Assembly: GCA_002633005.1 (NCBI GenBank)
Contig: NMRA01000206.1
Location: forward strand, 393,250-457,249
Direction: 5' to 3'
Length of the DNA: 64,000 bases
Origin: Phoronis australis
Taxonomy: Eukaryota; Animalia; Phoronida
Positions within the stretch are counted from its first letter, which is position 1, and each line of letters starts with the position of its first letter. A program made the position numbers and the translations under genes. A model generated the notes under the pieces. It was not told the DNA's origin. It was given only the letters and a program-made list of their open reading frames with translations, and searched no databases. Positions 5,673 through 32,700 of this stretch are shown here, piece by piece.

Positions 5673-5678
5673 TTTATT
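5673..5678 (-). terminator. Candidate polyadenylation signal of semaphorin-5 (3' UTR about 2.7 kb)
   Basis: AATAAA on - strand followed by a U-rich tract (+ aaagaaaaaaaacaag at 5641-5656); alternative AATAAA at 5830-5835. Confidence 0.5.
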
Positions 5679-8359: not shown

Positions 8360-8766
8360 CTATAAATCATTCGATGATAAATTTGTCCGCATGGAATTGC
8401 GCTTTGCCTCTTTTATATTGTCCTTCTTAGAATCCTTCCTACTCAACTGCCTATTGAGAGTACTTGTATTTAGTGTGATGTTCATAGCATTCAATTCCTG
8501 TTCACTGCAATACTGATTGTTCAAACTAACTCCTGACGGCACGGTGGATAATGTCGTCATATAAAGATTAGGTTGTGCTTCGTTCTTGTGGTTTCTTTCG
8601 TTCTCCACCATGGGTTTCTCCCTTCTCTCTTTCCGCCGGATGTACATGAAAATTGCGAACACCACCAACCCGCCTAGGACAAAACCTGCCACAGCGCCCC
8701 CTATAGCGTGTTCAATTCCCAGTCCACCCCTGGCTACCTGCTCCTGGGTTTTCCCCAATCGGATTT
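8360..8766 (-). CDS. SEMA5: Sema5 terminal exon: TM helix + cytoplasmic tail
   Basis: HAIGGAVAGFVLGGLVVFAIFMYI followed by RRKERR stop-transfer; TAG stop. Confidence 0.92.
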
Positions 8767-11700
8767 CTGGAACGAGAAAAGGAAAAATGAAAACAAATAA
8801 CAGATTGAAGGTGCAGAATAAGCATTATGCACTTAAGTTAAGTACACCACCAAACTAAGTGTGTGACCCGTGACACTTAATATTCATGAAACAGTCAAAA
8901 ATCTATACAAAGATTTACATACCTGTACAATCATGTGGGCAACAAAAATGTACAGGTAACAATAATGTGCAGGTAACAAAACTGTACAATATGCATCCTA
9001 TCCCCCAAACCAGGGAAACCTTCAGCAGCAACCTTCAGCAGAAGACATTTCGACGAGAACAAGAAACTAAACTCACCTCCTTCATTGAAGAGACATGGTC
9101 GTTCTTCCCTACTGAGACCTTGACATTCAGTGTCTGACGGCGACGGAACATCACAGTCCCTCTTCCTAAACTCCATACTGTTGCTAGCACACGCGGACCA
9201 CTCTGACCACACTTTCCAACCATTGTTGTCTGTAACCATAAAAACACACACATAACAGCAAGAGTTGGATTAGTACTACTCACACGAACAGACTTTGATC
9301 GCGGTTTTCAAGGAAATTTGTAATGTTCTACCTTCACAGGTATTTCAAACAGTATAACATTACCATCCTCTGGTCTGTTCACGCCTCCTTAACAAGAATT
9401 TGCAATCAAAAATTAAAAAATGTGTCATTAAAAAGTTTACTTCCAAAAAAAATCCTTAGTCTGTTTCCATTTCTGCCACAAAGAACCCTCGAAGATTACC
9501 GTAGAAGTAAAAGCTAGGTCCGAAGGTTAACTTTTGACATCTTGTCTCATAAGGTAAATTTTAAATAACATCAACAAACTATATCACTTCTTCCAGAAAC
9601 TGCTATGAACTTCAGTGAAGATGTGACAAGACAAACTTCAAGTTTTTGTATTCAATTGATCATTCTCCAAGTGAAACATGTGTCCTGAGTATAATCAGTA
9701 CAAACATTCCAATTATCCCATGTAAAATTTCATCCCGACAAAAAATCTACAGCAAAACCAATTGGATTGAGGAACTGCAACTTAACTCTACTATCAACTC
9801 CGGCACTTCAACATGCATGCATGTTTAAGTGACCACCTCTGCCACAAGAGGGCACTGCATGACAAGTGAAATACTTACCCCTGCAATCAGCTGAGCACAA
9901 GGCGGTCTCCTTGTTAGAGCCTGGACAGGGGATATCGTAGCTGCGCCCCTTGATATTGCTCCGACACGACCGCAACCGTGACTTGACACCATGACCACAG
10001 CTCACTGAACACGTGATCCAAGAGCTCCAACATGACCACTCACCTAAAGGGGGCAGTGCAGTCACTATTACATTATGACACACTTGGACCACACTGTAAC
10101 ATTTTCACATCTTGAGCTAGTATCATGTATATGTAGTATACTTTACATTACATGGAGAACCTTATTGACAAATCTGTGTATTTAGTCACATTTCTACAAA
10201 ACTAGATTTTAACAAAGTAACAGTACATATTTTCTGAAAATAAAGCCTGTTGAATTAAATTATTTATAATTACCAATCTGCCACTTGTTGGGTCACACGA
10301 CCATGTCGTTTTTAGTAAAATTTAGCAACAAAGAAATTACATTGAAAGCAATATAAAATATTGCTAACACGATCAAATTTCCTTTTGATATAAATGAGAT
10401 CTCAAAAGCGATGTTTCAGTTTTCTGTTTTTCGTTATTTCATAAAAAACATATAAGTCCTATTTTTGATAGCCTCTCAAGCAAGAGTGTAACAATGCCCA
10501 TCAGTATCTTAGAGAACACTGTTCAAAGCACAGTGTCTGTAAGTTAATAAATTCGATAAGACATTTCTGAAATATGATGTTCCAGAGTTATGACCAAAGT
10601 TGGACATTCTCCAAGGACCTACGTAACCATAAAATAGTTCCAGGAATAATTTTAGGAACACGGTCTGTGTCATTGGCAACGAAATAATTTCAATTACGCA
10701 CTGTGATTGCCAAACTCGGGCCGACGGGTCCATTAGAATTGGAAGCCAATACACAAAAAACTAGGTCCTCCAAATTGACCCACAGATTTTAAGCCGGGTG
10801 GGTCAATTCACCCATACCCACGTTTTTATAAAATGATCGCTGTAGTGCTGTTTCAAATGTTAAAGAAACTAGCTTTATTGAACGGGGCGCTTTTCCGAGA
10901 AAGCATCTGGAAGACACCTTAGCACAGTGAACCAGAGTATTTACCTTGGCACGAGTGTATGTTACACTCTTTCTGTTCGATAGAGTACCCCACACAATCC
11001 TGGCCGTTTCCTTTGGGTCTAGGGCTGTTGCAATGTCGGTCACGCCACTGGCTGCCTACACCACAAGCTCGGGAACATGGGGTCCATTCTGACCAATAAG
11101 ACCAGCCGCCGTTTACATTGGCCACTCGCCCACTGCCATCTGTTGGGAAAATGGAACAACGTGAATTGGTAAGATTATCAGATTTTGTAGCCCAGTAGAA
11201 TAATGATGACCTCGTGCTGAGTGTTATCTAAGGGAAACTAAAGTGAATAGGAAATGTATGAAGGCACACAAAGTGCATTAAATGGATACAACAAAGACGA
11301 AAAGTAAATCAAATTCAGACTGCTTAAGAGAGTGTAAAAGTCACACTTTGCACTTCATGAGGAACGTAAAGCAGCCGTGCATTCCATGGACGTGACCACT
11401 TAATGCAGGTATGTAGTGAGACTGCATGATTTGCTTGAAATGCATCTTGTGTATTCACAAAGTGTTCACGTCTACAGAATGCACGCCACGTGTAATCAGT
11501 TGATTATAGGCCCTCACACTGAGTTGCTTCAATCAAACACCTTTTGCAAGACGTCCAGAGTAAGTTCAGGCGTGCAATTGGGTTGGAATATCAACTAATA
11601 CTACGGCGGTACTATCAGGGTTGATCCAGTGCATTAGCACTTAACAGTGTACTGCAAGGGTGACTTATCAGACTAGAATACGGAAAGAGCAACATTCCAT

Positions 11701-14700
11701 TATGGCAAATACTACAGTGAATGTGCAAAATTGTAGACTTTTGACTTTAGAGCACAGCAAGCCTATGGTAGCCATGGAAACATTTCAGCATGCTTCACAA
11801 TCAAGATAACACTATAATAGACTATAATTCAAACTTCAAGTGCAGTTAACAGTATTCCTTAATGAAAAAATTCTCCAGTTTGGTACACAATATGGCGGAC
11901 AAGTGAAATCTCATTTTGTCAAAATTTTTAACAAAAATAAATTTCCAGGAAAATTTACTTTGCTCTTAGCATGGTTTGTATGGCGTGGTTTTTTACCTAA
12001 CAACATTGGGAAATGTTTGAGCAATTTTTAATAATGTGGTAAGCCTCTGAAAAATGGAAACATGTCAATTTTAGCAATTATTTTGTCCCAAACTGAAGAA
12101 TTTCTACAATACCTCTACAATAACTAGTCATGACAACAGTATTGGCAGACAAAATGTCGTCGTAAAACAACTTTTTTTTGCAGTGCAGGGTTATGGGTTA
12201 TCTGTGTGCATATTCAAATATGTTACAACAATGTCATCTATTTCCAGCCACTACAGCGGAGAGCAAGTCATCCCCCCTCATGAACCACACAAACATTCTC
12301 AGTAACAAGGTTCTTTTCTCACGAACACAATTCTTTTCTCATGAACACATTTTACCCATGAACAAAAGTCTTTTCTCATGAGCACAATTCCTTTCTCAAT
12401 AGCTGCGTGTGCTTTCTGATTTTCTCAAGCACCACAGTTCTAACAGGCACATTTCTTTTCTCACACACCACAATTCATTAGTATGAACGTTTCATTTCCT
12501 GAAAAGCTGGAACACCCGTACGTTGATGAGGACACCAGAGTACCCAGAAAACGTGTATCAACGCCCATACTACTGTAGTTGAACAGCATTCGGATGAACA
12601 TCACCAACACATATGGATAGTCTGAAGGTGAATATTCATAGGCAATACAACTTATACAGTTTCAATATCTTGCACATACATCCACGATTTAATATGGTAC
12701 ACTAGTGATAAGCTCTCTTCAATTTCTGTTTGCAAAATTGAATTTTCCCACTCTCTAGTAGAGATATTTAAAAGTTCAAAAAGTTCACCACCGTTTTCTT
12801 CAATAAACACTGATGAAGTCAATTTTTTCAAAGTTTAGTTTTGAGGGGAAATTTCACAAAAATTAAAAGTTTAAAATCTAAATTGACGAAGATTTACCGT
12901 TAAACTCCTAGTAATACAAGCATGGGTACTAAATAAAGCACTAGAACTTCAGCACTCCTTCATTATCGTGCTAACAACTAGACTATGTACAATTCAGTCC
13001 ACATCATAAAAACATCATGCAACTCTCGTGCATACAAACCAGAACTGGTAGATGTAGCATTGGGGAATATGTCATCGGGCTGTCCTATCTCTGAAACGTC
13101 AATTTCAACGATGTTGACTTATGTTACATTTGAACCTATTTTGAATGAGCTGTGAAAGTTGAACAAAACCAAGAACTCGGTCTCGATTTACCGAAAATAT
13201 AAAATTTTCCTCATCTCGACATGACTAATCTAACTTATATTATATTACGGCTACCACCAGAATAATAATTCTTATATCTCCTTATTCTAGGTTTTGACTT
13301 CATACTAATTACTGAATTGTAGACAAAATTAACATATTTCCAACATAAATTATAGTCATTGTTCTCATGCAAGCAAGTCTAACTGAATGCTAGCACAGCA
13401 GAGTCTTACAAGTTTATGTACTCAGTTCAGAAAACGTATTGAATAACGTAATCAAAGCTGGACTTGTAAAGTGAGGCCAATAGTTACGAATAAGTAAAGA
13501 ACTGGACCAGTTAAGTGTTAAACATCGGTTATGTACAAATAAAGTAATGTCAAGCAAGTCATTAAGAGCAGATAGACTAAGTTAGAGATAAATCTAAATA
13601 AAGAAACTGAATAGAAGCTGTTTCATTGCGAAGTATCAGCGTGGGATAATACAAGAAGTATTAATACAAAATTGATGTTTATGAGCGCTAAGAAATGGAG
13701 AAGAGAGGAGACATTTCTATGTAGAAGCAATGTTAGTGTCAGTTGAGCAGAGGAATATTCAGAGCAACGCTATCAAGGCATGAAGGTTGATATCAGTAAA
13801 TGGAAACTGAGTGCATCAGAAAAGCTGCAGTGCCATGACGTAACAGTTTAAACCATCTTACCTTGCGAATAGCTTATGTATGCAACCGAACCGCGTAAAA
13901 TTTTAACTTCTATAATCAGTGAAATTGCATGTGAAAATAAAGTAAATTTCACAAAGAAATTGAAAAAAAAACAAAAAATAAGAAGAAGGATTATATTGTT
14001 AAAATATCTAAAAGTGCACAAAACATTGAGCATATAAATTGAAAATGACTAGATTTTCACATGGCTCAGATGCCAAATAACAATTTCTCCAGACTAATAG
14101 ATCCGACAAATCAAAACTCGTCCCTTGCCACATACGTTATACAAGTTCTTAACCGATAATGAGGCAACGACAGAAACGGTCATACACTCATTTTTGCCCA
14201 GCAATCACACAGCATCATACTGCAATCATACTGGACAATTCTTTGGTAAAAAATTTTCACCATTAAAATTCCATACGTTCAAACCGTTACAAGAAAAACG
14301 CACAGCATCTAACTTCTAATTAATTCTGTATGTTGTACTATGGTTGTACATTTCGCTTAATTGACCACTGTACAACGTGTGAGACAGTGACTTCAGTTAT
14401 CCTATAGCGCCTCCTATTGGTGAGAACAGGTTACAGCCAGAGGAGCCATGCATATAACCTAGAAAGAGCAAAGGCCAGCAGGGATTTGGGGCAGTTATGG
14501 CTGCAAGGACCATAACTTGAGAGGGGTTTAACCGTGATAGTGATCAAAACGTCCAAATGAAGTGGTACAAGCGGGATAGTTTTGCAAATGAAGAACCAAC
14601 TTGGTTCCATCGTCAACAAGAATGTTGAATCCGTACTGGCCTAGACTAGAAAGTTAGCCGTTACAGACTAAAGAAGCACCGTACACCTGCTTGACACTTT

Positions 14701-17700
14701 AACTCGGTCCAGTTTATATGTTACAAAGTTTCCTAACTCTAAAATGGGGAGCCAGTCCTCAGGCTCCGTGTACTGACTAGCAACTTAAGTGTATATGTTA
14801 CTTTAATACTGAAACCCATGTTTTGCTGAGAAAACCCAGATTCATTCCAAGCCATTGTGGCGCTATGAGCACCACAGGCTGGAGGACGGCATGACTACTC
14901 ATATGACAAATGTTAAAACTCACATGAACTACTTTAACTAAAAAACATCGAGTGACAATAATCAAAATAAACTCTGACATCAAAGCAACTCGGCTGAGAT
15001 CAATTCGCGGTCAACAAGAATCAAATACGGTAAAAATGGCACGCAAAAAGTACGGAAATATATGTAAGGACATAAACGAGAAAACCTTTCCACAAAAGCA
15101 CTGGACGGAGCATGATGCACAGGATGGCCATCTTACAATTACTGCCCCTAGGTGGCATAACTAGAGATTTCACAGGCAGTAACATAACTAATTCCAATAC
15201 ATAACAGTGCGATGACAGCAGGCGATCATTATATTGCTCAACACTGAGTGTCAAGCAAGATATGATCAGCCGTGTGCACCACACAACACACGCAGACATC
15301 AACAGTCATTTACACTCTGAACAATTGAACATACATCACTGGTTGAGACTGTAGAATATAGCTCTCAGCAAGCTCAATGCTTGCTCATTCGTAATTAAGA
15401 CTTATATCTACAGAAGTAGGAAACAGTGATTCTTCATCTATTTAGCAGTATTAGGGAAAATTTGCGGACAGAAAATTTTATTATTTCCATCAAGGTACTA
15501 AATGTTTACAGTAACACACCATGTGGATACATGAAAATGTTGTGCTGGCGCTTATTTTCAGAAATTTCATGAAGTGCCAATCTTTTTTCAAACTTGATAC
15601 AAATCGTGGTGTTCGGTATTTGATATACACACATAGACATACATGATGAACACCCAAAATTGTCCATGTCCCAATCTTCAGAATCAAGAACTCCCAATTT
15701 CCGCTTGAATTTAGCTGGTGAGTCCAAATTTTAGAAACAAAAAATATCTAGTATACCTGACTAACAGTCACCTAACAGTCTCCATAAAGCAATACTACGC
15801 AACATTTTGACACTAGGTGGCCATTCTGGCAAGTTTGATAGTGCGAAACAAATAAAGAACAACTGAATCATTTAGTTGAGGGCTTTGAGACAACTCATAA
15901 ACATCTTAATACTTGGGTACACAAAACAGCATAACACCACGTCGTTTACACTGGTACCGTCGTAACAGCCTCCACCAGTATTTATAATAGGGGTCATTTA
16001 ACAAGCAGTACAACTGATCCGGACGGAGTTTACTTCGCTCACCTCCGTTGGTGGGACAGTCCCGCCCCCCACGGCTGCACGCCCGCTGCTCTGTCTTCAT
16101 GGTTCCCGCCATCAGAAAACTGTCCCTCTCCACGTTGGCTTTACACTCAAACTTGTAACGCACTTCCTTGTACGAACCATCAGGGCGGGTTCCATTAGCT
16201 ACCACCCATTGCGTCCATGCCGATGACTTTCGTTTTACTATATAAAAAAATGAGATTAACCTAGTCAGAAAGGTACTATCACCTGTATTATGGTTAGACC
16301 CCCAACGGAACAGAACTGTAATTACTTGAACATTTTTGCAATAGTCTTCCTTTAGAAAGATTTAGATTGAAATTTCTGCAGTTTCTATGCCGACTGTACA
16401 TATAATTTTCTCATATGTCTAAGTTCACGTGCCCCTACAGGAAATAGCATGTTTTTAAAAGAATTATACTTTTACTCCGGGATTTTGCATATAGGCACAT
16501 TTACGTGTGTCTTAAATGGAGTGTTTTCACTTATTCCTGTCCACTCTAACAACTTAATCTAAAGTTATATTGAGCACTGTTTAAGGTAATGTGACTATTA
16601 CCCTGGGACATCCTGTGTCACACAATGGCAAGTGTTGACTATTTTCATTCAATTTTGCAATAACCAAGCTGTGGAACAAAGCAATTCAACACTCGTTGTA
16701 TTCTATAGTGATAATGGAGTTCATATTTTTGATTCGACAAACCAGTTCATTCTTCTCATCGGGAACAATGTCAGGCAGAGACTAAAACGAGTATAAACCC
16801 GAACGTTGACGATGGACACGTTTGCCTTTCTTCCATTCTTCATCCTCACAGCATGTGGGAACACCATTATTATTATTATCATTATTATTATCATATGATG
16901 TCATTACTACACCTCAAGGACAGATAGCCTACAGCAACTGACTTACTTGAACAGGGGGCAGTCTTACAATCCTTCCAATCCTGGTCATTGCCCACACAGC
17001 TACGACCGCCGAATGCGGGTGACGGGTTACTGCAGCGTCGACGTCTCAACTGCATGCCACCACCGCACTGCTTTGAGCATGACGACCACTCTAGCCAGCC
17101 TGACCACTGACCATCACCTGGACATTGGTAATATAGACTTAAGGTCAAGACGCCAACTGCAATTGCTTTTATTTTAACACAAATAATGTTACAATTATTG
17201 ATTTGTTGTAGGCATCCCTTTACAATCCAACTGAATATTTTTAATTAACATAAATAAATGCTTCGCACTCTGATAAAGAGTGAAGCTAGTGGCTGTTAAA
17301 TGACCTATTATGACCCAGCAGTACAGTAGCTTTAAAAATCCAGAAATCAATCAGCTCAATAACTTGTGATGAACAGGTGGTTATACTTACGAGGACACAC
17401 TGGGTTATGAGAGCACCGTTGAGTTTCTTCACGAGCTCCGGTACAGGCCCGCCCCCCAAATTGTGGGGCGGGGCTACTACAATGGCGTGTCCGTCGTCTC
17501 CGTGTGTTTTGGCCACAAGTGGCACCACAGGCTGACCACTGAGACCACTCACCCCATCTACCATGCACTGAAGGAAACAAAATTGTAGGCATAATACAAA
17601 GGAAGCAAACAGGACAGGCGATTCAAAAATGGATCCGACTTACAATAAAATATAAAAAATAATTGCAGGCGGTCTGATACACGTTGTATCAGACGTGCGC

Positions 17701-20700
17701 AGGCCTCGCATGTGGGCCCATTGCACTGATCACCTGGAAATATTTTTATGCTTTATTGATATATGGTTAAAACCGAGCTGAGGAGCTAGAAACCTGGCTC
17801 AAGGGTTTAGCAGAGTGACCTGGTGGGACTTGAACCCAAGACCTCGAGTAAAGAAAGCGGGCACTTATCAACCAGGCCACACTGCCTCCTCACGACTTAC
17901 AATAACCCTACATGCTGGGTGTAGCATTAAACATGCTTTATTTGTCTAGGTAAAAATACAGAAACTGTACAGCAGAGAAAAAGAAGCTAGATTTTTGCAT
18001 ACAGAAAACGCGAAAATTGACCAAGTCCACTAAAGTGACAAGCTTGTGTTTTACATCATGTAACTTTTGTCAACAAAGATGTTTGTAACTTACTCAAATT
18101 AAACCATCACTCCTAAATACAATACAAACAAGAAAACTGAAATATTTTGGTCACATTGAAAGGCATGACACCATCTGCAAGAACATACTGGAAGGAAAAA
18201 CAGAAGGGGTGAGAGCAAGAGGTAGACAACGCAGAAAGTGGCTGGACGACATCAAGGACTGCAAGAATGTACCAGAAAGGCAAAGAGCAGAGCAGAATGA
18301 CGGGTCATTTCAAGTTGACCTCTAAGGAGATGACACCACATGATGATGAACTTTTATCACTTCACCAAAATATTCACTCTAACTATACACTAGAACAGGT
18401 GGTTAGTGTAATGGGCCCAACTGTACGGTCTAACCACACCTGCAGCACCGCAGAAGGCACCAGGTCACCTGTCTAGAAGGTCCTGTAATTAAAGAAAAAG
18501 CATCACATTTTCATATCATTATTTTCAAGCAAAGAGAATAATCAACTGAAGGTCTCACCTGTACAATTCACCACCTGTATAGATGACCCCCGACAAGGCG
18601 ACCCGCCCATCATGGGTGAGGGGTTATCACAGCGCCGTGACCTGCACTTGCACTGAGTCATCGTGTCAACTGACTGTTCGCATGACTGCCAATGGTCCCA
18701 GTCTGACCACTGTCCATCCATTCTGTAGCTGGTGACAGGACAAGAAGTCATTCTCTGCACTGTATACTGATTGTGTTCCACGCAGACCCTGCGGACACTG
18801 TGCCAACCGCAATAGGGATCCATGGCATTAAGACAAGACCTAAATACAAACAATGAAATTTACAAATACATTACAATAGCTTTGTACTCATATGTAGTAC
18901 GTAGACGTATGTAGAATTGTATTACTTTAAATTATTTTCCGAAAGTTTGGAGATCGAACTGGCTAACGACGTCGAGACGACATTGACCTACCTTTTTAAC
19001 TTTCCATGTCAGAGGTCACTGTTGGAGTAGTGTGGGAGGTGAATACGGAAAACTTAATTACATGGTCGTATTTCCCTCGACAGAATTAAAGCGTATGGCA
19101 TTAAATGAAATATGAAATGCAATTTAATTCCCCAGAAATTAATAAACAGACTCGATGACTCAGGTGCTAGACATAAGACTCACCTTCTGTCCTTGAAGCG
19201 CCCACACCTGTGTACAGGTAACTTCATCAGCTTCATCTCAGAACCCACATAAAGAAATCCCTGAAACATCGGGAATGGAAAAAACTTGCAAAAGTAAAAA
19301 AAAAAACGGATATCATATCACAGAACACGATTATAAATTCATAAAAACTGACGTAACATTTTTTTTGCATTTGCCCTCTTTCAAATTATCTCTTCTTAAT
19401 AACTTTATAGATACTGCATTTAAACTAACATTCAAAAACACACCTCCATGATTTTCATGCTCTTAATTGGCTGCACAGCATCCTCGGGAAACAGGCGAAG
19501 TTCTTCCACCAGACATGCCTCCTGTTGGCCAGCAAGTTGTACTAATTTTTTGACTACGCCGTCCAGAGTGGCAACAAACAAGACATGGTACGTGCCGTGA
19601 TGGACAACATCCACCGCAATGTGGCTCCACCTGTGGGAGAAATTGAAGTTACAGGACAGGAAACCTAGACTGTCAGTATCTGGACTCATCAATAGTCGGA
19701 CTGGATCTTTATATCCGGTGCCAAATATTGCAAGCCCTATGGCTAATTGTCAGAGAACAGAGAGGTTGAACTACCTCACACCCCCCCCTCCCGAACAGTC
19801 CAGATTCACCTATGTTTGTTAACAGTAGAACATGAGATGGGATAGGTTGTGCAGACCCAGTGTGACTCACAACTGTCAAGCCTGAGTGTAGCCACTGGAT
19901 TGTCCATCACTTATGGAACTGTAACCAAAGGAAGGTGTGAATCAGTATAAGCTCAACCACTTGATGTTTACAGCTGTACCACTCTAACGAATCCACACAA
20001 ACAGCCACGGGTTCAGAACAACTCCCCCTAGTGAATCATGGGTTCTCTATCCTGAAAACTCACCTTTCGTTCTCTCCACTCGCCAGGGGGCGTATGTGGT
20101 TGGGTTGGACAGCCTTATCCATCAGTTGATAGCGTACTGCGTTACTCAAGAGCTGCTGTACTGCTGGTAGGTTCTCACGAGCCAGTCTGGGACTGGGTGA
20201 ATCAGGCCCGGGGGGACACTGAAACAAACAGCATGGGGTCAACAGACTACTTAAAGCCTTCGATGATTTTTGACCTATTTATTTCTTTTAATGAATAGTA
20301 CATAGAATGAGAATCATTGCCCACAAATCGCTAACATTATAGGCAGGTGGTTAAAAAATAATTAAGATTACTTGGTGATTCAAAAACCGATCTTATATTC
20401 TAACTCAAAGAGATTATGCTTGAAAACACAAAACATGCTGAAACACATCCCCATTCACTTCCTTCAGTTATCAGAGAAGTAACGTTATTTATTTCTTGTA
20501 ATTGGAACCATAAACTAGAGTAAGACACTTAATTTCAACCAGTCAAAACTCAGTCAAGTACCACCCATAGCCACAGTTCAGTTGCTATAAATCACTGTGT
20601 TGATATAACCAAACCAGTATTATACAAATTTTAAGTCCATGCTTGTGTCGGACAATAGCTTGACATGCAGCCCCACCTGGTGTTGGCTCGTAGGATTAGG

Positions 20701-23700
20701 CTTTCTCTCCCAGGCCATGCGTGATGTTGCCTGATACTTCACTGCCCCGTGAAACGTCTGTTGTAGCGATGTCATGTTGAATACGCACACAGCTGAGCCA
20801 TGAATGGAATTGCTGAAGAAGTCGAACTTACAGGTAAGTAAACACTACACTACAGTAAAGATAATGGTCAGATATAACTTGCACGAAAGTGAACACTACA
20901 CTACAGCAAAGATAATGGTCAGATATGACTTACAGGTAAGTAAACACTACACTACAGCAAAGATAATGGTCAGATATGACTTGCAGGTAAGTAAACACTA
21001 TACAACCCTACAGCAAAGATAATGGTCAGACATAACTTGCAGGTAAGTAAACACTACACTACAGCAAAGACAAAAGTCAGATATAACTTGCCCGCACTTT
21101 TAGAACCAGTTTTCACCACTGAATATCGGGCATCAAAATGTGGTCACCTTATATCCGCCTATCGCCACGGCAGTTTGAGAATAACAACACATTGTAGGTT
21201 TAGTATAATCATTTATGGCAGCTATAATCAGTACTAACTGTTCATAATGAAGTACAATCATATTCAATTTGGATTCTTCTGAGAAACTTTAAAGCAATTT
21301 TGAACGTGATGAGATTAAAAAAATACCAAAAAGTGCAGCCTTTGTCATTTTTATCATACGTTAAGGCACAGCTAAAACAGAAATCATTTGACCTAGCCTC
21401 TGACAACTAGCAAATACCCACCACGACAATTATATGACCATTTAAGTTAAACTTACATGGGAGTGGTAAAAACAGCATACAGCAGACCCTCCTCTTTGAC
21501 CAGGTGAGTGCTCTGTAGCTCGTCATAGTAGAATGGATAATCACCGGCTATTGAACAGTTCAGTCTGGCCTTCATGAATGTTGTCCAGTTGTCTTCCAGG
21601 AGCGAGTCTTGACCACCCCGGTCATTCTTACAGACACGGGCCACTCGGGAGTAGACCGCCTGGGAATTAACAACACACGTAGGAGAAAATTTACAACTGA
21701 GAAAGTTTAGAGCTTAGAATAAGTCGTCAATGAAAAATGCATCTGTATTTGACCAGATTCAATAAAAAATTTCAAAACCGTAAAAATTTAATACACAAAA
21801 AAATTAAGATTATCTCTGCCATATCACACAAGTCTTGCATCAGCAGATCTCTGTATCTATAGATGAACAGACGAAAAGGACAGGTTTTTGATTTTTTTGA
21901 AATCCTAGTGATGAGGACACAAGAGGAAAGAAGTACAGTGCAAACCCCAACAGTATTCAGACAAAATGACCCAGAATTCTCTCTCATGACGGCTGATCAG
22001 AAGCCTAATTCATCGTCAGTGTAGTCATGACAACAGAACTGTATTTTGTCTGATTACGTTTGTCTTGTACTGTAATCCATGCTACAACACGCACTACACG
22101 TGCAATGCCGAGACTTTAAGGACATCTACAGGTAAACAAACTGACTAGTTATAATAGAGATATTACCTTGCCACAGTTGGTGTATTCTACAGCTGGCTCA
22201 CGGAAGAAGAAATACACGTAGTCACTGACTTCATACGAAGACACGAACTGAGGAACTGAAAGAAATACATCATAGCTTAAATTACAGATACAGTATTGTG
22301 ATAACTATGACATGATGAACTAACATAAAACAAATTTTCTTACATCCCATTACCCGATAGTATGCCTATTCGGGGAAATAATCAATGAAGACGTGCCCAC
22401 ATTTTGAGAACCAGTTTGATGCCCATTTTTCAGTGTAAAAACTGGTTCTCTAAATGCCGGCATGTTATATACAGCTTCAGTCCACATATGGGGTAAGGAA
22501 GAAGACAGAACAAATGGGCCATATGGCCATGCATTACCCAACAAAGACCAGCTAACAGTTCCAACACAGGGAAAGGTAGCAAAGAACAAAAGAGCAGCAC
22601 CACGCACGAACAATGACATCACAAGAAACGACATATTCAGAAACTTGTAAAGAGCAACAATAATAAATTTTGGATGGGATTTGGTGGGAGGGGGATCCCG
22701 AGAACAACACCAAATGGCTGGGGCGTGATCTTAGGGAAATCAGAGAATACAAATTGAACATGCCATTATCACAGATTTGAACAGGCCAGTTCATCAAAGT
22801 GAAAACAAACATCTTGATTCATTCATTATCTTAATGCCATCAGCGTAATGAGTAAAAGCATGAAATCACGTGTAATTTAGCGACTTGTAGTTTGCTCAGG
22901 AATTTCGACCATTCCCAGTAGGTGTGCTGGCCGCCTAGGACTGTTTATCACAATGAAATTGCATTTTGGCACGACGGGAGACCACAGATGGCATACAGAT
23001 TTTATGGGTATCACAATATACTTGGTATGCCAGCGAATTTTGTATGAAACACATTGCAAAAGATCAGGACACCGTGTTGCAAGTGCAACCAAAGCACAAG
23101 ACGGAGACGTGGTCACAACAACAAAACAATGAAAGCGCTCCGAGGAGCGACACTTGGCGAAATTAACAGAAAAGATGACGATAGTGATGATGGCGAAGTA
23201 GAGGAATATGACGACGATGATGGAGATGATGAGCATTATGATATCATTCATAAGACGAACATTGAGCTCAGAAATCAGTAAGAAATAGGCTAGTCTTGAG
23301 CGGCACTTGGTGAAATTAACAGAAAAGATGACGATAGTGATGATGGCGAAGTAGACGAATATGACGACGACGATGGAGATGACGAGCATTATGATATCAT
23401 TCATATGACGAACATCGAGCTCAGAAATCAGTAAGAAATAGGCTACAGTCTTAAGCGACACTTGGTGAAATTAACTGAAAAGACGACAACGCAGATGAAG
23501 ACGAAGATGACAAATATGATGACGATGGTGATGAGGATGAACAACATCATGACATTCATATGACGAACTTAGATGTCATAAATCAGTAACAAATAGGCTA
23601 CAGTCTTGTTCAATATATGCTTAACCAACATCAATGCAGCAAGACTGCTCAACAAAGGAACAGCGGTATCAGAAAATTACGAATAATTAGAAAAGTAGAC

Positions 23701-26700
23701 GTTCAAGCGAAAATGGAAAACATCTTCTGAAAGCCCATCCAAAACTCTATCGAAGAGATAGTTTCGCAACATTCCGTCAATTTTTCGAAAAAAAATGAAA
23801 TTTTGCATTTTTTGAAATTCTAGGTAAAATAACTCGAAAACGGTTAGTCTGATAAAAATTGTTACAGTTCATTTGAAAGAGTATACTGCAGAGAATCCAC
23901 ATGCAAAAATTCACGTCATTTTCTCTTCCTGTTTAAAATGGCACCCCAGCACGACTAAAAATGTGTCAGCATGCGCCAGATCTGTCATCTTGGAAACAAT
24001 TTCAGGTTTTTTAACATAGAATAATAGCTAGTTGTAAAAAACTAATACGTGAAAAATTTCAAAGAAATTGGTCCAATAATGCGCCCTCTACTGGAGAAAA
24101 CGTTTTTTGAACCAAATCGAAGTGTGCATGCGCAGCTGCTGATATTTCCGCCATCTTTGACCGGAAGTGAACAATTTCTTGCAGATTTGTAACACATGGA
24201 CAGTTCAATATTTCAATTGAGTTTCAGCCCTGTATGTCAAAAATTACGGCTTCTATGAGCAATTGAATCTGAAATTGGAAACAAAGTGGCCGCCATATCC
24301 ACCATCTTGGATCTGATTATGACGAAAAACAATAGGGTTCCTATACTCATAGATGTACAACTTGTGTGTAAATTTCGTGGTGATCGAACGAAAATTGCGA
24401 CCGATATTGCGCGAACAAACAAAAAAACTTAGCGACAGAGCAACATACTTGGCGAAATTTATTTCGCCAAGTAATAACTTCCCAAAACATTTCGACACAA
24501 TACTCTACCTGCATCAATCTCCACTGAAGGCATTGAAGGACAAGTGACATGGTTATACAACAAGTGTAACAAAAATTTACTGAGATCAAAATTGTCAAAT
24601 GCTTTTCAAGAATCAATGAACAAGTACATTTTCTGTCAATTGCTGGCCACAGCATGAATTTAAAAGAAAACAATTTAACTTTAAATGAAATTAACAACCA
24701 CTTTTACCGTTAAATTTTGTAGAAAACACAATATTTAATAAGGTCTTGGTATAACAAAACATCACGAGGCCACCAGTCTTTTTGCTTTGCTTACCATTAA
24801 GCCACTGCGAATTCAACTGCGGCGTTCGCAATGGGTCTAGCCTTCCCATTATCCTATAGATGGCGTAATCGCGAGCCTGGAAATCCAGAACTATACCACT
24901 GAAGAAGGTGCCATCATCTAACATCAGTGATGTGGTATTCACATTGGGACCAAATGGGCATTTGGCAAGGCCAGGCTCCTCGGCACCTCTCTGTCGCCTC
25001 AGTTCAGTTATCTGTGACAGAAACATACTGTAAATCAGTTCAAGAGTAGGGGCAAGATGTCAAGTGACTTACTGTAAATCAGTTCAAGTATAGAGGCACG
25101 ATGCCAAGTGACAAACCAGATTTGCTTACTTTGTAGGTATAAGTCAAAACAAGCTTTCTGTTACTGATAGCACAACAAATGCCACTTAAATGTTTTGTTG
25201 CGCAGAACAAGTTGTATTATTTTCCCCTACCAGTATTGTTATGGATATATTTAAAAAGCACACAAGCAACAAAATGGAAACAAATAACAACATGTGAAAA
25301 ATAGCAACAAAGTGACGGCCGAAAACAAAATTTGAAAACCGGTGCAATGGTGGCTCTGTCTTCCACTGTGACTGCAGGAACACATAAAATTTGTTCACAA
25401 CTCAGTGTGTATGCAATGAGTGAATCTATTGCAAGGACGCATAAACACATAACATTTGTTCACAACTCAGTACATGTATGTAATGTGTGAATCTATTGCA
25501 AGGATGCATAAACACATCCTAGCTTCTATGCAATTTCAGAAATACCACCAGAAAGAATAGAATAACAAAGCGGGAGAGTCAAAAATACCATATCATCGTC
25601 AAAGCTGAAATGTTTTCCTTGGTAACTTAATATCCATAGAGAGGCATGACTTCAAAACAATTCAGGTTGTAAAATATTTCCAAGATGGTGTATTATCAGG
25701 GAGCATCTGACACCAAGTTTTACAATCGAAGAATCGTATAACAATACACATCAATACGTACACTTCGCCATGAACATTTTGGATCATAAGCGTATGTTCC
25801 ACAGGCAAACAATTCTCCACCCTGAATGTGTAGCACTCGTATGAAGTTGTGACACTCCGATTCCGGCTTTCCTCTGGCAGCGCACAATGTTTTGGTCATC
25901 TCATCCGGTAACCAAGGCTCCACTTCGCGTTCAGCTAGATCCATCATGGTCAATTTCAACAGATGATCTCTACAAGGGAAATTGACCAAACTATGAATGG
26001 GGAAACAAACAAATTCGCCATCCAAGACAGAATAATGAAGAACTCGAAAATTGTTGAAGCGGTCCATTAAAACGTCAAGTATCACAAACTACGTCAATTC
26101 GTAAACTGCTTATCATACTAAATGCGTATTTTATTAAAAATTTTAAATTATTTTCTCAACAATAAAGAACATTTAGAAAATACTACAACAGTTCTTGACT
26201 TATCGGCCAGAAAAATAAATGCGAAAAAATATTTAAAAATTTTTTTTAAAGGCTAATTACTTTGCTACCAACAATAGAAACTGCACCAGATGTTGTTTCA
26301 TAAGAACTATATGTAGCACAAACCCAGCTAATAACGGACGAAAATACGTGAAGAATTACCTTAATTATTATTAATAATTATTACTACATCAGTTATATAT
26401 TACCACTAATCATTTAAATAATTTGAATTGTTCTCACGAAAAAATGCTAGGGTTAAAAAATTTCTTTTAACAGCATGGAGGTCAGATAATGAAAACTATT
26501 AAAAATATTTGGCAATTCTTTTTGTGCAAAATAACTTTAGAAACACTGTTACACATCAGCATCAAGAAAATGTGAACTGGCAAAATTGTTAAATGCAATG
26601 CGCCCATATAGCAAGTTTCCAGAATAACAACTAGGTGTGTTGGCAAAGAAATTTAATTTACCAACATGCAGCAAATGAACATTTTCAAATCAACGCCGCG

Positions 26701-29700
26701 CTACGTTGAATATTTGAAGTTAGCTCGCAGGCCTGTCCCTCATTTATTGTGAAAGTCCACATGGGAATATCTTAAATTCAAAACAGAACAATTAGCATAG
26801 AGAGGGTCATCACCGCAGGCTGAAGTCAGCGACCTTTTCAATCATTTTCAAAAAAAACCCGCCCTAACCAAATGGCCAGAGGCAATGGACTAATTGAATT
26901 ACCCAGAGTCAAACTGGCAATTCGGGATCAAGAGACAATGTGGCAGAGAGCAATCAATTGAATAAGTCAAGATGCTGCCTTTGGACAAACTACTTAAACT
27001 TAATCCATGTATGTGTGTGACAAGAAATAGAATCCATGAGGGGCAGGGTGAAGGTTGAATTTGCAAATAATGGATAGAAACACCTGCTAGGTCTGACAGG
27101 AATAACCACGGCAAAATCGTGAAAAAGAGAATGAATTAAATCAATAAAGTTATGTTCAAGTCGTATTTATAACATTGTTACTAATAACAATGATAGCAAG
27201 GCAACAGGAAGAGTGCCAACATATTTAAAGTATTGAGGAGGATGAGTTCAGAAAAAAGAAATAGCAGGTTCAAGGGTTGTGCAACAGTTGAAAACCAATT
27301 TCTTCAGAGCGCAGAAATAGATGTGCTGATGATCTTTGCTGTAGGAGAGACTGTTGCTAACTAGGCCCATTATCACCAAGGCAGAGGGCACTGTTCAACT
27401 GACAAAGCAATTTCAACTGTTCATAATCACACCAAAGTGTCAGCAACGTAATTCTATCATAGCCCAGAGTGCTCAGGACTGTGCAAACATGCCTGTACTT
27501 TTGCTGACCGCTAGAAGAGGTCAGTGTCCACCAGCAAGCCTGACCTACCTGGCTCCAACAATGACCAGCATTCTTTGTGTATCAAACACAAACTTTGAGA
27601 AGTCCACATAACCATTGCTGTATTCCACTACGCCATTTCGTCCATCAGGTACCAGGTCTACAAAGAACAATAATGACTATTAAGAAGAAATACACCATCC
27701 CGTCGTTTTAAAATGTTCAAAATTTTAGTATGAGAGCAACATCTACAGGGGATTACATTTTCGAAGTTACTACCAAAATATTATTGCAGACAAATTTCAA
27801 CGCCCTGGATGGAATTTGTGGTTGGGCTCATTATGTAACAAATCTTTAAAGTCCCAATGCTAAATCCCTAAGAACTGTTTGTTCTAAAATCCCTGCCATT
27901 TGAAAATTTCATAGAACCAAACTGCAGACAACTTGGTGTCTTAAATATAAAATAAACTTTAAGTGTTATTAATACCAATTAAAGACCACATTGCTATCAA
28001 GATGTATTTTTAACAAATGAATGTCCTGATTGTCCTCATTACTGGAGAAGTCCAAGAATAGTTCCTTATTAGACCTTCACCGCCAAAAACCCTTGAAACA
28101 AAAGACCTTTATTCCAAGCTTGAACTGGACACGAGACCCAAGAAAAAATACTCAAAGAAAACAGTGCATATGCTCCATTAATACAATGTGCACTGTGACT
28201 GACTAAGCTATTGTGTTGCCAAGGATACACTACCATGTCCATCTTAAGCCTGATGGTAATTCTTCAGTTATTTCGTACAAAAATAATCGCCAAATTGACA
28301 ATTTTCTAGTTCACAAAGGCTCATATGGCAATCTCACAGTAAACTATGGAAACTTAACCAAACGATGTTTAATAAAATCTTTACGTTACAATCATCAAGT
28401 TCATGAGAGATGAAAACATTCTTAAACTTATACGGTTGAGAAATTTTACAAATTGATAATTCACCTGTCTGTCATACTGTGTGCTAAATAAGAGAATTTT
28501 CATTCCAAAAATGCAAATCATGTAGTCGCTCCCAACAAATGGATGGACGGACACCTCAAACCTTGTCATACCACGATTGAAGATGATTTTCATCTCATAA
28601 CGATCATTACGACCATTGACAAGCAGAAAAAGGTGTCAAAAACTCATCAGTTGTGACAAAATTAGCCAACCATTATCAGTGCAGCCTCAGATGTCGCTTT
28701 TGTCTCTTTACTATGTTGACAAGCACTGTTGCTTGTAGGCATTTAGCACAGTTTAACAGATAGTCTATGGTATGCATAGAATCTGTTTTTAACATTATCA
28801 CCTATTTATAAAATAGAGTTCAGATTTTTTGCAGACTTTGATGAAATCAAAAAACAGTTTGCTTCATTAAGGCTTCAGACTTAACTATCAACAAACATTA
28901 TGTTTTTTTTTACAAAAAACAGGACAACAGGCAATGTTAGTTCTCAATAACTTTAAGTGCCCCACCAAAACCTTGACCCAGATGGCTTTAAAACTATTTT
29001 TTTGGCTCTAGCAAAACCAAATATTTAAGGACTGCTTGGGTTCAGTACACTTGAGTTAACATTTGCACTGTCTGGGAATTTCAAACAAAACTTTTAACTT
29101 AACCAGAATGTTTTCAGCTTCACCTTTGAAGGCCATTTGTACTCTGAAAATTCTCTTGACCCTGGCTGCATGGCTTGCAGCGATTTTGGCTGGCACAGAA
29201 TTTCACTCGCTCTATCAATGTGGCATTCTAGTCAAATGCATTGTTCTACCTGATTCTATTGCAGTCATTGACAACTTGCATGGTAAAATCTCATTAATTT
29301 CGGACAAACATAATTACCAAAATTGCCGGTTTTACATTTTTCAAAAACCTACCGGTAAAACTGATGTGAACGTCCACAATTTCTCAAAACATTGACTGAC
29401 AGCAGCTTTGTTATAGAATTTTGAAGTGGTGATGCACTTGACGAAACTTGAAGCTTTTAGGCAATAATAAGAAATAGAATTTCACCAATACACATGCCAT
29501 ACTGAGTCCTAAATCGTTGGGGTTTTACCACAGTCTCAATTGTCCATATGGGAATGCATATTTTCAAGACAAAAAATCTCTTATCATGAGAGTAAGGACT
29601 AAGTGAATACCAGCTTTACAACAGTAAGTGAACTTAGTCAAAAGTTAGTTTCACGGAACAATTTATCACAGGCAGCACAACAGTTCTGAAAAAGGCACTG

Positions 29701-32700
29701 TATTCAATCAATCAACATTCACCAGGAACAAATGTTGTGCAAGACACTGGCACACCCATGTATAACAAACCCAACCTAACAGTGGTGTTGCATTCAACAT
29801 CATTAATCACGGCCACCAGGGGTCTGTCTGGGCTGAGTTAAGTCTCCAGCCGGGCCTCAGTTGGAGGTGAGGTTGTCACAGCTGGATTGTGTTGCCCACA
29901 GCAAGTGGCAGAGGTGGTTTGTGTGGGATGTCAAGCCAGTCAACACAAGAGGACAAGAGAAAGTGGTTACAATATGGGGAAGCTTGGTGGCTTGAAACAA
30001 TAGAAGGCTTATGAACAGCTGTTGCTGCCCAAGATAATTGGGACTTGTCACAAATCCTTAGTCCAGGCAAAATTCCAGAGAAAAGGACGAAACCAGGAAA
30101 GAGGAAGAGAAAAAGGAAAATGAAACAATAACCTCTTGATACAATCCTAACAAGTTTACAACGAATAACTGACAAGAATAATATGTTAGTAACCAGTACA
30201 TGAGGTGTTGTCAAGTGCCTTTAAAGAACCCCCTCCCCCAACCCCTTAAATTCAAAGTGCCTTGAACACACATCTCAACAAGAGAAATAGATTGAAAAAC
30301 TAAGTAGGAATAAAAATTGAATTTAAATTATTGTTGTTTTATATGGGGCTAGCATATAGCCTAAAAGAAACAGTTATTTTTAACGTAGCTAAATGAATCA
30401 AAGACCAACCACTTGGGAGTGAAAAGTGGATTTAATACGCTGTAAACTTTAGCAAACACCCACAGTTTAAATGTCAGCAAAACGCAATTGAAAGTCATCC
30501 CAGTAGAAACGATACCACTGAAGACTGCAAGTTGATATCTGAAGCAATTACTGAAGAAACACAAAAAAATCTGATACGAAAACAATACAAATCTTGAACA
30601 CAGCACAACCCAAAACCACCATTCTACTGCATAATTACCAAGGAAAATAAACCTTTTGATAAGGGCCTGACAAAAGCCCTCAACAGAGCTGTCAAGAAAA
30701 AATGTTAATCTTAGTGTGACCACCAGTAACACCCCTGGTAATGGACCCAGTGAAACTCTATCAGGCTACCAGCAATAACAATGAACTCTCATGTTGCACC
30801 CATCATGGGTTCATTGCCAAAGGTGGTGAGATGCTTGAACACACATATCTTCAGTGTATGGTAATTGCTTAGAAAGAACAGATAAGTTTCTGAGACTAAA
30901 AGTACAATTATGTCTTGTCTATCAGTTGAAGTTGCCATCAACCTACTTCATCAAAGACACAACCTTTTGATTCAACCCACTTACAATATAATAGTAAGCA
31001 CTTGCAAAATTTGCATTCATTCGAAATTAATTTCACTATAAGAATAACAAATGTCATCACCTGTGTGACAAGAATGGCAAAATATGTAATAACAAATGCA
31101 TAACACACCATACAACAACATACTGTAAACAACAAACAACAGCCACCAAGTGCCCTCTCCCAGTACAACAACAACTCCTAGACTAAACATGTGGCTTTAA
31201 GATTTGGTTCTAAATAAGAAAAACTCCAGACTCCTCTGTAATCACTCAGTTGACACAGAATAAGTCTTTACAAAAGTGAAAATCAGTCTGTAGAGAAACA
31301 GTAGAAAGCAGACCTCTGTTGTTATTTTGTCTTCAAAGTCTATTGTCATCATAGAGTGCCTTGGGGAAGATTAGTCGAGACGGGCACCGCAAAAATTAAC
31401 AAGCCTCAAGAAACCAATCATTAAGTTTAAGCTAGAGGTTACTCAAAAGAAACAGAAGAACTTTTAAATCTTTTTACTTTTTAATTAGTTTTCGCAATAG
31501 ATTAACATAGGCTCAAGACCTTATACTTAATAATTTCATGCAAAAGTGAAACTATATTAGACATTAATTAAATGCCTATTTGCCAAAGTTATTAGGCTAC
31601 TTGGTCTGGGGTTACAGGTTACAATAACACCATTGTGGATGTTAACTGCACCAGGTAAACCAAGGTAAACCAAGGTAAACAGCCTGCAGAGACAGGTGCA
31701 GAGGTATTGAGGTCACCTCAACCACTCTTCTCAGAAAGTGCTACCAGGGATGTTGAGGAAGAAAGCCCACGAGGTGTTCAAAGGGTACAACAGTTAAAAT
31801 AGATAACACGACAAATGAGACATTAACATGAGAACAATTATCATTGTTAAACAACGTTAGGAACTAAGAAGCATGTAACAAACTCTAGAAACGGAAAACT
31901 AATCCAGTGAATGAAGTTGGTACAGTAAAACCTCGCACATTTCAGACAAATATTAGCACCAAAGTAATCTCTTGAATTTATCAAGGGCTGCTAACATTTT
32001 TGAGAATGCTCACAATTATTCATAACATAGTGCGATGGCTCATAGCTATCACTACAGAACTTGAAAATGGCATTAAAAAGGCACTGTTGATCTTTTAGAA
32101 TAAAAATGGAAAAAAGTTCCACATGTGGAATCCTGAACTAGAAAGATTTTTCAAAATGGTGATCAACGGTCACTATGGTACAGAACTTGGACATTATATA
32201 AAACATTAATTTAATTGCATAATACACCTGAGGTATTCTCACAAGATCTCTGTTATCGATCAACAGATTCTTCATGAAAGAAGTTTTAAAATCTACTTAA
32301 ACATTAATTTGATGATACATATCTTTAGAGATAAATTTAAAAATTAAAAATTCCCTTGCCACTCCCACTATTGTGTATAGGGTAAATTCACCGTATATTC
32401 ACACAATATTGTTTACAACCAGCTACCAAAACAAGTTTATTAAAACCAGTAAAGTCATCCCTCACCAAGTAGTCCATTGGTTTGACATTTAACCCATGAT
32501 AATAAATTACCTATGATGGGTCTGACAAAGCATAAAAAGTTGGTGGATTTGGAGGATAATGGCTGTCTAGAACAGCTGACCACAAATGGTTAGTGAATAG
32601 AGGGAGTTCACAACCACAATACAAGAAGCCACCAATGAAATTCTTTGAGATAAAACATAAAGTTAAAACTATGTGCTGGGTCATCGCTCATGAAAACTCA

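What the first reader, a model, noticed from the sequence alone, without database searches (positions are those of the whole stretch)
13862..15714. Candidate array of frame-symmetric cassette/micro-exons in the Sema5 TSR4-TSR5 linker intron
Seen: the phase-1 intron 11140..16042 is by far the longest in the TSR region. It holds four AG...GT segments of 3n length that are open in phase 1: 15643..15714 (72 nt, AKFKRKLGVLDSEDWDMDNFGCSS, T|gtatgt), 15137..15160 (24 nt, VMPPRGSN, T|gtaaga), 14435..14458 (24 nt, GYMHGSSG, ctttgctctttctag acceptor, weak T|gtaacc donor) and 13862..13909 (48 nt). The last three have UGC within about 25 nt of the AG. Known: UGC near the 3' splice site marks SRRM3/4 (eMIC)-dependent neural micro-exons in bilaterians. 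Inference: a combinatorial, possibly neural, tuning system for the ectodomain linker of an axon-guidance cue. Caveat: short AG/GT pairs arise by chance in AT-rich introns, and I saw out-of-frame ones too.
Basis: partly seen in the sequence, partly recalled or inferred. Interest (0 to 1): 0.75.

Follow-up and report, generated by a model that had tools for sequence, protein, structure and literature searches.

The report
Secreted semaphorin-5 form hidden in intron
None of the four proposed mini-exons in this nerve-guidance gene shows up spliced in the RNA, but the same intron holds a different optional 51-base exon that is used, and its first 45 codons likely end a shorter, predicted-secreted form of semaphorin-5 resembling a form found across molluscs.

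Summary
The four segments are in the sequence as described, but segments of that quality occur at about chance rate (30 vs 26±7 in shuffles; 9 vs 4.4±2.5 on a stricter score). In four RNA runs none has a listed splice junction. Reads over the 72-nt one would change three consecutive residues. The 48-nt one keeps an eMIC-like acceptor and is not excluded in neurons.

Reading through the donor at 16043 gives 45 codons and a stop: a predicted 837-aa Sema5 with a signal peptide and no membrane anchor. 29 of 58 homologues found end at this point in a conserved basic, Cys-rich tail; those with a name are molluscs. In seven long/short pairs the two forms part right after TSR4. The window's tail matches in position, length and charge but only moderately in sequence (p about 0.002-0.03). 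RNA depth is raised over the intron's 5' part; no poly(A) site was mapped. Verdict: array unsupported; one real cassette; likely an old membrane/secreted switch.

The parts
8360..51888 (-). Semaphorin-5 gene, 18-exon model, 1098 aa (signal peptide, Sema, PSI, TSRs, TM, cytoplasmic tail)
   Evidence: Open from ATG to stop. Five of the 17 introns have listed RNA joints; the rest are inferred from homology and frame.
51717..51888 (-). Predicted first coding exon with a signal-peptide-like hydrophobic stretch
   Evidence: Weak tblastn match to mollusc N-termini; phase-1 GTAAGT donor in frame with exon 27657-27549. No RNA laid here.
16043..16237 (-). TSR4 exon (the atypical, domain-swapped, GAG-binding repeat of Sema5A); its donor is the branch point of three outcomes
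   Evidence: PF23260 E 5.7e-17; 8ckg E 2.4e-6; joints.
15906..16042 (-). Read-through tail: 45 open codons and a TAA stop, net charge +8, no hydrophobic segment; predicted C-terminus of an 837-aa secreted form
   Evidence: similarity to 30 mollusc-type tails.
14160..15905 (-). Putative 3' UTR of the short form; 3' end not mapped
   Evidence: Sense-strand depth higher than in the intron's 3' part: X4 11.6 vs 3.1, X2 3.5 vs 1.2, X3 2.5 vs 2.0.
13040..13090 (-). Real cassette exon, 51 nt, phase 1-1, open; adds 17 residues (acidic, one N-x-T sequon, Ser/Thr-rich end) to the TSR4-TSR5 linker
   Evidence: Joint 11139-13040 in 1+5+5 reads (7 starts) and 13090-16043 in 4 reads of X4 (4 starts), canonical ends; frame.
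10945..11139 (-). TSR5 exon (downstream constitutive exon)
   Evidence: PF00090 E 7e-13; joints.
15643..15714 (-).
   Evidence: No joint. 12 of 12 covering reads in three runs carry four differences that would change three consecutive residues; overlaps a dispersed-repeat fragment 15657-15690.
15137..15160 (-).
   Evidence: No joint at about 20x unspliced depth in X4; acceptor rank 23 of 247, donor 12 of 360.
14435..14458 (-).
   Evidence: No joint; an X1 contig runs unspliced across 14390-14580; acceptor rank 1 of 247, donor 186 of 360.
13862..13909 (-).
   Evidence: AG-free zone 96 nt (longest of 250), UGC at -20, donor rank 1 of 360; no joint, depth only 1-3 here.

Best explanation
This Sema5 intron is not a micro-exon array but likely a three-way switch after the TSR4 exon: splice straight to TSR5 (shown, the main form), include one 51-nt linker exon at 13040-13090 (shown, a minor form), or likely skip the donor, read 45 codons into the intron and end there, which would give a secreted semaphorin without a membrane anchor. 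Shown: direct joint 27 reads; cassette joints 11 and 4 reads, inclusion roughly 13-29%. Inferred: when the donor is not used, a poly(A) site inside the intron ends the message (composite terminal exon, as for secreted IgM). The product would be 837 aa: signal peptide, Sema, PSI, TSR1-4 and a basic tail, without TSR5-7, TM or cytoplasmic part. Because human TSR3-4 is the disulfide-linked dimer and glycosaminoglycan-binding unit, the short form would keep dimer and GAG sites. The added basic tail would likely hold it on heparan/chondroitin-sulfate matrix as a diffusible or matrix-bound plexin cue (untested). The cassette likely acts as a glycosylated spacer between the TSR4 dimer and TSR5 (untested).
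For: Junctions. Chance rate of the candidates. Read-through ORF of 45 codons is second longest of 15 donors in this gene (the others 1-34 and 48). 29 of 58 proteins from the TSR4+tail search end in the conserved tail and one more carries it internally. In 7 of 11 pairs compared, long and short forms part three residues after the last TSR4 cysteine, long beginning D and short G-E or G-Q, as a phase-1 donor read-through would give. Four are same-species named pairs (Mercenaria, Littorina, Octopus bimaculoides, Batillaria). The window's short form is 837 aa against 825-849 for the complete mollusc ones; tail 45 aa against 47-58; charge +8 against +5 to +11. Pairwise similarity with the donor-dictated first 3 residues removed: local 6 of 3000 shuffles and 0 of 585 window control peptides; global 56 of 3000 and 5 of 585. 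Four tail columns (C, G, L, C) are invariant in 37 sequences including the window's. Sense depth is raised over the 5' part of the intron in X4 and X2 (bin test p 5e-5 and 0.013; bins are not independent), while the upstream intron has about zero. Sema5A TSR3-4 dimer and GAG site: PMC10978931 section 6.
Against: Profile-HMM tests are weak: 139 of 5000 shuffles reach the real score and the ORF ranks 35th among 2217 window ORFs; earlier smaller profiles gave 73 and 65 of 5000. The window's tail keeps only 2 of the 5 conserved cysteines. The resemblance was first seen by eye, so the p-values are post hoc. A 45-codon open run is not rare by itself: one other donor of this gene gives 48. No poly(A) site or poly(A) read was seen. 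The only AATAAA (15482) does not coincide with a fall in depth. X3 shows almost no depth step (p 0.07). Junction counts upstream (33) and at this donor (31) are equal, so the short form can only be minor in these samples. The 3' part of the intron also has depth 1-3, so some signal is unspliced precursor. Read-through in molluscs is inferred from proteins; no mollusc DNA was seen, and several gastropod tails do not start with G. The upstream cassette joint is seen in one run only. In human numbering one GAG-site arginine (R747) is not basic here.
Confidence: 0.55

Rival explanations
1. One real 51-nt cassette in a slowly spliced or partly retained intron; the 45-codon read-through is a chance open frame or a decayed relic of the mollusc-type tail and makes no functional protein.
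For: Weak HMM scores; 3 of 5 conserved cysteines missing; depth 1-3 over the whole intron; an X3 read extends 63 nt on the short side of the 11139-13040 joint, beyond the 51-nt exon, as partly spliced precursor would; another donor gives 48 open codons.
Against: Position, length, charge and four invariant columns agree with the mollusc tail; ranked first of 483 control peptides; depth step in 2 of 3 raw-read runs; the neighbouring upstream intron has about zero depth.
Confidence: 0.3
2. One reading: one or two of the four segments (most likely 13862-13909 or 14435-14458) are neuron-restricted eMIC-dependent exons, diluted below detection in these samples.
For: 13909 has the longest AG-free zone of 250 (96 nt), a long pyrimidine tract, UGC at -20 and the best donor; 14458 has the best acceptor, three UGCs and a weak donor. 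These features are described for fly eMIC exons (10.1101/2021.02.24.432780, passages). Tissue unknown; only about 18-19% of each run was read; mild excess of high-scoring segments (14 of 200 shuffles).
Against: No listed joint among 38 acceptor-side and 31 donor-side junction reads, and no inserted letters between the flanking exons in table 5c. UGC is at 37% background. The U-rich tract above 13909 could equally be a poly(A) downstream element. Protein-changing variation in the 72-nt segment.
Confidence: 0.12
3. The raised depth at 14160-15420 is an individual-specific feature of run X4 (an insertion or internal transcript), unrelated to a short Sema5 form.
For: Depth peaks at 14880-15420 rather than next to the donor. 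X4 alone has a cluster of differences at 15184-15239 and 20 reads joining 15203 to 7493 through 21 foreign letters.
Against: X2 also shows a step, and X1 has a contig at 14390-14580 with depth 40. This explanation does not account for the tail's likeness to the mollusc tail.
Confidence: 0.1

Closest known systems
Composite-terminal-exon intronic polyadenylation giving secreted forms of membrane proteins (IgM heavy chain, soluble EGF/FGF receptors; PMC5928244, passages)
   Same: Unused donor, read-through to an intronic stop, loss of the TM segment with the signal peptide kept.
   Different: Here the cut lies three TSRs before the TM segment, not just before it; the read-through encodes a conserved 45-55 aa tail; the poly(A) site is not mapped in this species.
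Mollusc short Sema5 database isoforms (e.g. Mercenaria XP_053408315.1 X2 vs X1; Octopus bimaculoides XP_014767871.1)
   Same: Same break point after TSR4, same total length (about 830-845 aa), basic tail with C-x3-G-x2-L-x-C, predicted helix followed by strand (low to moderate confidence).
   Different: The window's tail is 45 aa, lacks three of five conserved cysteines and scores weakly on a profile; the species falls outside the sampled molluscs in the quick tree.
SRRM3/4 (eMIC)-dependent neural micro-exons
   Same: Two candidates are 24 nt, frame-preserving, with UGC near the acceptor; one 48-nt candidate has a long AG-free zone.
   Different: No inclusion seen; UGC at background rate; the exon that is used is 51 nt and has no UGC.
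Class 3 semaphorins (secreted, with a basic tail; tail mentioned in PMC11017241, passage)
   Same: Secreted Sema-domain ligand ending in a basic tail.
   Different: Separate vertebrate genes with an Ig domain, not an isoform of a TSR-bearing class 5 gene; no sequence relation was tested or is claimed.
Human SEMA5A/5B; shed ectodomains and a proposed secreted splice form 'SEMA5D' (recalled, not verified; one search gave only single mentions, not read)
   Same: TSR4 with the dimer cysteine and the C-terminal cysteine pair; soluble class 5 forms are thought to exist.
   Different: No vertebrate, arthropod, priapulid or hemichordate protein retrieved carries this tail.

Membership tests
eMIC/SRRM3/4 neural micro-exon (the four candidates) | Spliced inclusion between the flanking exons | tested here: not met
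   No listed joint in 4 runs; listing floor 3 reads from 2 starts; 38 and 31 junction reads at the flanking sites. Not met at this depth and in these samples.
eMIC/SRRM3/4 neural micro-exon (the four candidates) | Very short (3-27 nt, cut-off recalled) and frame-preserving | tested here: inconclusive
   Two of four are 24 nt; the others are 48 and 72 nt; all are 3n and open.
eMIC/SRRM3/4 neural micro-exon (the four candidates) | UGC close to the 3' splice site | tested here: inconclusive
   Present in 3 of 4, but also before 92 of 248 AGs of this intron; found in only 74-79% of true targets (10.1101/2024.09.17.613571, passages).
eMIC/SRRM3/4 neural micro-exon (the four candidates) | Long AG exclusion zone and long pyrimidine tract | tested here: inconclusive
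   96 nt for 13909 (1 of 250 that long), 40 for 14458 (28 of 250), 31 and 25 for the others.
eMIC/SRRM3/4 neural micro-exon (the four candidates) | Neuron-specific inclusion and dependence on the eMIC domain | not testable with these tools
   Tissue of the runs not given; no perturbation data.
eMIC/SRRM3/4 neural micro-exon (the four candidates) | Conservation of exon and flanks among close species | not testable with these tools
   No genome held and no related animal genomes; within-species differences argue against the 72-nt segment.
Frame-preserving cassette exon (13040-13090) | Both inclusion junctions plus the skipping junction, canonical GT-AG | tested here: met
   11 downstream reads in 3 runs, 4 upstream reads in 1 run, 27 skipping.
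Frame-preserving cassette exon (13040-13090) | Length 3n and open in the gene's frame | tested here: met
   51 nt, no stop.
Composite-terminal-exon intronic polyadenylation isoform | Open frame from the unused donor to an intronic stop, losing the TM segment and keeping the signal peptide | tested here: met
   45 codons, stop at 15908-15906; 837-aa model. The signal-peptide exon is predicted, not RNA-checked.
Composite-terminal-exon intronic polyadenylation isoform | RNA coverage past the donor that falls at the cleavage site | tested here: inconclusive
   Step near 14160 in X4 and X2, not clearly in X3.
Composite-terminal-exon intronic polyadenylation isoform | Mapped poly(A) site with AAUAAA/AUUAAA | tested here: inconclusive
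   AATAAA 15482 and ATTAAA 14807 do not sit at the fall; the variant AATATA at 13997 before a U-rich tract does; no poly(A) reads listed.
Mollusc-type short Sema5 tail | Starts right after TSR4, about 47-58 aa, net basic, ends the protein | tested here: met
   45 aa, +8.
Mollusc-type short Sema5 tail | Five conserved cysteines including C-x-C and the terminal C-x-x-C | tested here: not met
   Only the two around G-x2-L align; filed as resembling the family and possibly a diverged homologue, not as a shown member.
Mollusc-type short Sema5 tail | Significant sequence similarity | tested here: inconclusive
   Pairwise p 0.002-0.02, profile p 0.013-0.03.
Class 5 semaphorin | Sema + PSI + TSR array with the atypical TSR4, TM segment | tested here: met

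The most novel reading that the evidence does not exclude
Spiralian Sema5 genes carry an ancient membrane-versus-secreted switch: the intron after TSR4 encodes a conserved basic, Cys-rich tail that, by donor read-through and intronic polyadenylation, turns the class 5 membrane cue into a secreted, matrix-binding semaphorin built like vertebrate class 3. This window extends it beyond molluscs, and some gastropods may have kept only the secreted form.
Probability: 0.5. Interest if true: 0.68.

Novelty: new variant of a known kind. Interest (0 to 1): 0.5.

Why it matters
The passages read from a survey of semaphorin evolution call invertebrate Sema5 transmembrane where they state its type and mention no short form (PMC6374515, passages). 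A short form conserved across bivalves, gastropods and cephalopods, and perhaps another spiralian phylum, would give these animals a second secreted semaphorin from the same gene. It ends exactly after the dimer- and GAG-binding unit that sets attraction versus repulsion in Sema5A. That makes isoform-specific tests possible in octopus, oyster or snail, where sema5 expression in the octopus optic lobe is already mapped (PMC9815951, passages) without mention of isoforms in those passages. The mechanism is known and databases already hold the mollusc sequences, so this is an overlooked variant, not a new kind of system. The cassette exon alone is ordinary.

Tried and rejected
No whole genome is held, so no conservation or repeat-copy test on DNA. 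The run search listed no indexed RNA holder beyond X1 at a 0.09 share; the runs were judged by laying them. The first protein search with the TSR4 exon found nothing (23 candidates). No homologue retrieved has a linker insert resembling the four candidates or the 51-nt exon (by eye); none is a close relative (best 49% identity), so this says little. An alternative acceptor at 13117 (78-nt, in-frame version of the cassette) was considered and dropped: rank 227 of 247 and no joint. One search had one training acceptor off by a base; it was corrected and rerun, whose numbers are used. The structure model of the window's TSR4+tail is low confidence (pLDDT 55); the mollusc-type model is 63.5. Fold searches found only Sema5A TSR3-4 weakly and did not test the tail on its own. 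The ESM Atlas gave generic TSR clusters under 0.9 and no usable hit for the tail. Pfam has no family for the tail. Rfam: no match in the intron. The careful tree did not finish; the quick tree was used and not tested further. Earlier scan notes: none near, none by sequence, and one unrelated ADAMTS2 read-through note by words, not used. A DGSG glycosaminoglycan-attachment reading of the linker (motif recalled) was noted but not tested.
Full report
Setting. The minus strand carries a class 5 semaphorin. An 18-exon model from 51888 to 8360 is open for 1098 residues. The exon 16237-16043 is TSR4 (Pfam PF23260; human Sema5A TSR3-4 structure 8ckg). No genome is held. In a quick tree of 40 Sema5 proteins the window's protein falls outside the sampled molluscs, ecdysozoans and deuterostomes, next to one unnamed long-branch partial protein (SH-aLRT 91). 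A non-mollusc spiralian is my inference; annelids, echinoderms and amphioxus were not sampled by name.

Observation. The four segments are exactly as written and the intron is the longest of the TSR region. They are not beyond chance. The intron has 282 AG..GT segments of 3-150 nt that are 3n and open, and 92 of 248 AGs have UGC within 25 nt. Scored with this gene's own splice sites, 30 segments pass per-site thresholds admitting all four (shuffles 26.2±7.3; 63 of 200 as high) and 9 pass on summed score (4.4±2.5; 14 of 200).

RNA. Four runs were laid twice: one set of contigs (X1, RNA by guess) and three stranded raw-read runs read to 18-19%. They differ from the window by about 1% over the exons and 3' UTR (45 differences in 3813 laid bases of the X1 contig). 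The five exon differences I tested are all synonymous. Tissue and library selection are not given. One search lists three joints with none hidden: 11139-16043 (5, 9, 13 reads and a contig), 11139-13040 (1, 5, 5) and 13090-16043 (0, 0, 4). None touches the four candidates, and no read has letters inserted between the flanking exons. The listing floor is 3 reads from 2 starts, so low inclusion is not excluded. Over the 72-nt candidate, 8 of 8, 2 of 2 and 2 of 2 reads carry four differences that would change three consecutive residues, and a repeat fragment overlaps 15657-15690; some of these reads could come from that repeat. An X1 contig crosses 14435-14458 unspliced. The 48-nt candidate has low depth and the best eMIC-like architecture, so it stays open.

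The real cassette. 13090-13040 is 51 nt, GT-AG, open in phase 1. Inclusion is 11 of 38 at the acceptor (95% interval 15-46%) and 4 of 31 at the donor (4-30%). It adds 17 residues with an N-glycosylation sequon and a Ser/Thr-rich end. It has no UGC within 40 nt and a 25-nt AG-free zone, so nothing marks it as an eMIC target. No homologue shows a like insert, but none is close.

The read-through tail. The TSR4 frame continues through the donor for 45 codons to TAA at 15908-15906. Among Sema5 homologues, several stopped right after TSR4 in a shared tail. A search with a TSR4+tail alignment gave 58 proteins; 29 end in the tail and one carries it internally. The query was built largely from such tails, so this share is not a frequency in nature. 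The named ones are bivalves and gastropods; cephalopods appear among cluster members. Of 11 pairs compared, 7 part three residues after the last TSR4 cysteine (long D, short G-E or G-Q); in the other 4 both members end in the tail. The short forms tested have no TM-like segment, while four of the long ones clearly do (maximum hydropathy 0.35-1.26 against 1.78-2.65; one 866-aa long form and one 931-aa tailed form lack it). Three unnamed proteins (P0007, P0014, P0018) have a longer tail with the same closing C-x-C-x2-L-G-x4-C-x2-C motif. The window's short form would be 837 aa.

How good is the match? Position, length and charge agree. In pairwise scores against 30 tails the window's tail ranked first of 483 control peptides and 2 of 2000 shuffles reached it. 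With the first three residues removed: local 6 of 3000 shuffles and 0 of 585 controls, global 56 of 3000 and 5 of 585. Profile scores are weak (139 of 5000; 35th of 2217 ORFs), and three of five conserved cysteines are missing. One other donor of this gene has a 48-codon open run. I put homology at better than even, not shown.

Is the short RNA made? Sense depth over 14160-15959 exceeds that over 11280-14159 (two repeat bins left out): X4 11.6 vs 3.1, X2 3.5 vs 1.2, X3 2.5 vs 2.0. The upstream intron has 0-0.05. Against: equal junction counts above and at the donor (33 vs 31), no poly(A) reads, no canonical signal at the fall, and an X4-specific oddity near 15203. So the short form is at most minor in these samples.

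Mechanism. Shown: two spliced forms. Inferred: donor skipping plus intronic polyadenylation (the composite terminal exon of PMC5928244, passages read) gives a secreted Sema-PSI-TSR1-4 protein. Human TSR3-4 is a disulfide-linked, domain-swapped dimer holding the GAG sites (PMC10978931, section 6 and passages read). The window keeps the dimer cysteine, the following lysine and one of two site arginines as lysine. A basic tail would likely add matrix binding. Secretion, binding and function are untested.

Literature. Passages only were read of PMC6374515, PMC6040699, PMC10084454, PMC9815951, PMC11017241, 10.1101/2021.02.24.432780 and 10.1101/2024.09.17.613571. None of those passages describes a short or secreted invertebrate Sema5 or a linker cassette; the cricket paper notes extra Sema5 isoforms without detail. 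Searches listed no paper on it (listings only; open-access library). Supplements were not opened; those of PMC6374515 may list such sequences. SEMA5D and proteolytic shedding of vertebrate Sema5 are recalled, not checked. RefSeq already models the short form in some molluscs.

Verdict. The micro-exon array is unsupported; one ordinary cassette is real; a likely ancient secreted-form switch is the result worth following. Interest 0.5; new variant of a known kind.

Noticed in passing
window 34655-39462: A 2.3-kb direct duplication (95.5% identical) flanks the N gap at 36975-37142; likely two haplotypes assembled in tandem.
   Followed up: no
window 15203 and 7493: In run X4, 20 reads join 15203 to 7493 through 21 foreign letters, next to a cluster of X4-only differences at 15184-15239; probably an insertion polymorphism, unexplained.
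   Followed up: no
window 27658-51716: The predicted first coding intron is 24 kb, far longer than all others; not examined for nested genes beyond an ORF list.
   Followed up: partly
window 5661-8359: The long form has a 3' UTR of about 2.7 kb (X1 contig).
   Followed up: no
window 23146-23607: Three tandem copies of a 153-nt unit in a Sema-domain intron, overlapping a 197-codon hydrophobic ORF on the minus strand.
   Followed up: no
window 11860-12110, 17608-18271, 21947-22435: Dispersed repeats with many reads from elsewhere in the transcriptome.
   Followed up: no
proteins P0030, P0206, P0207, P0209, P0213, P0216-P0218: Limpet and heterobranch gastropod tails begin with K, N, R or S rather than G, and the Patella cluster listed only short forms; the donor may have been lost or moved there.
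   Followed up: partly
proteins P0055, P0149, P0168, P0172: Tick Sema5 isoforms differ by about 57-60 residues after TSR5, where the longer ones start a further TSR: another site of ectodomain variation.
   Followed up: no
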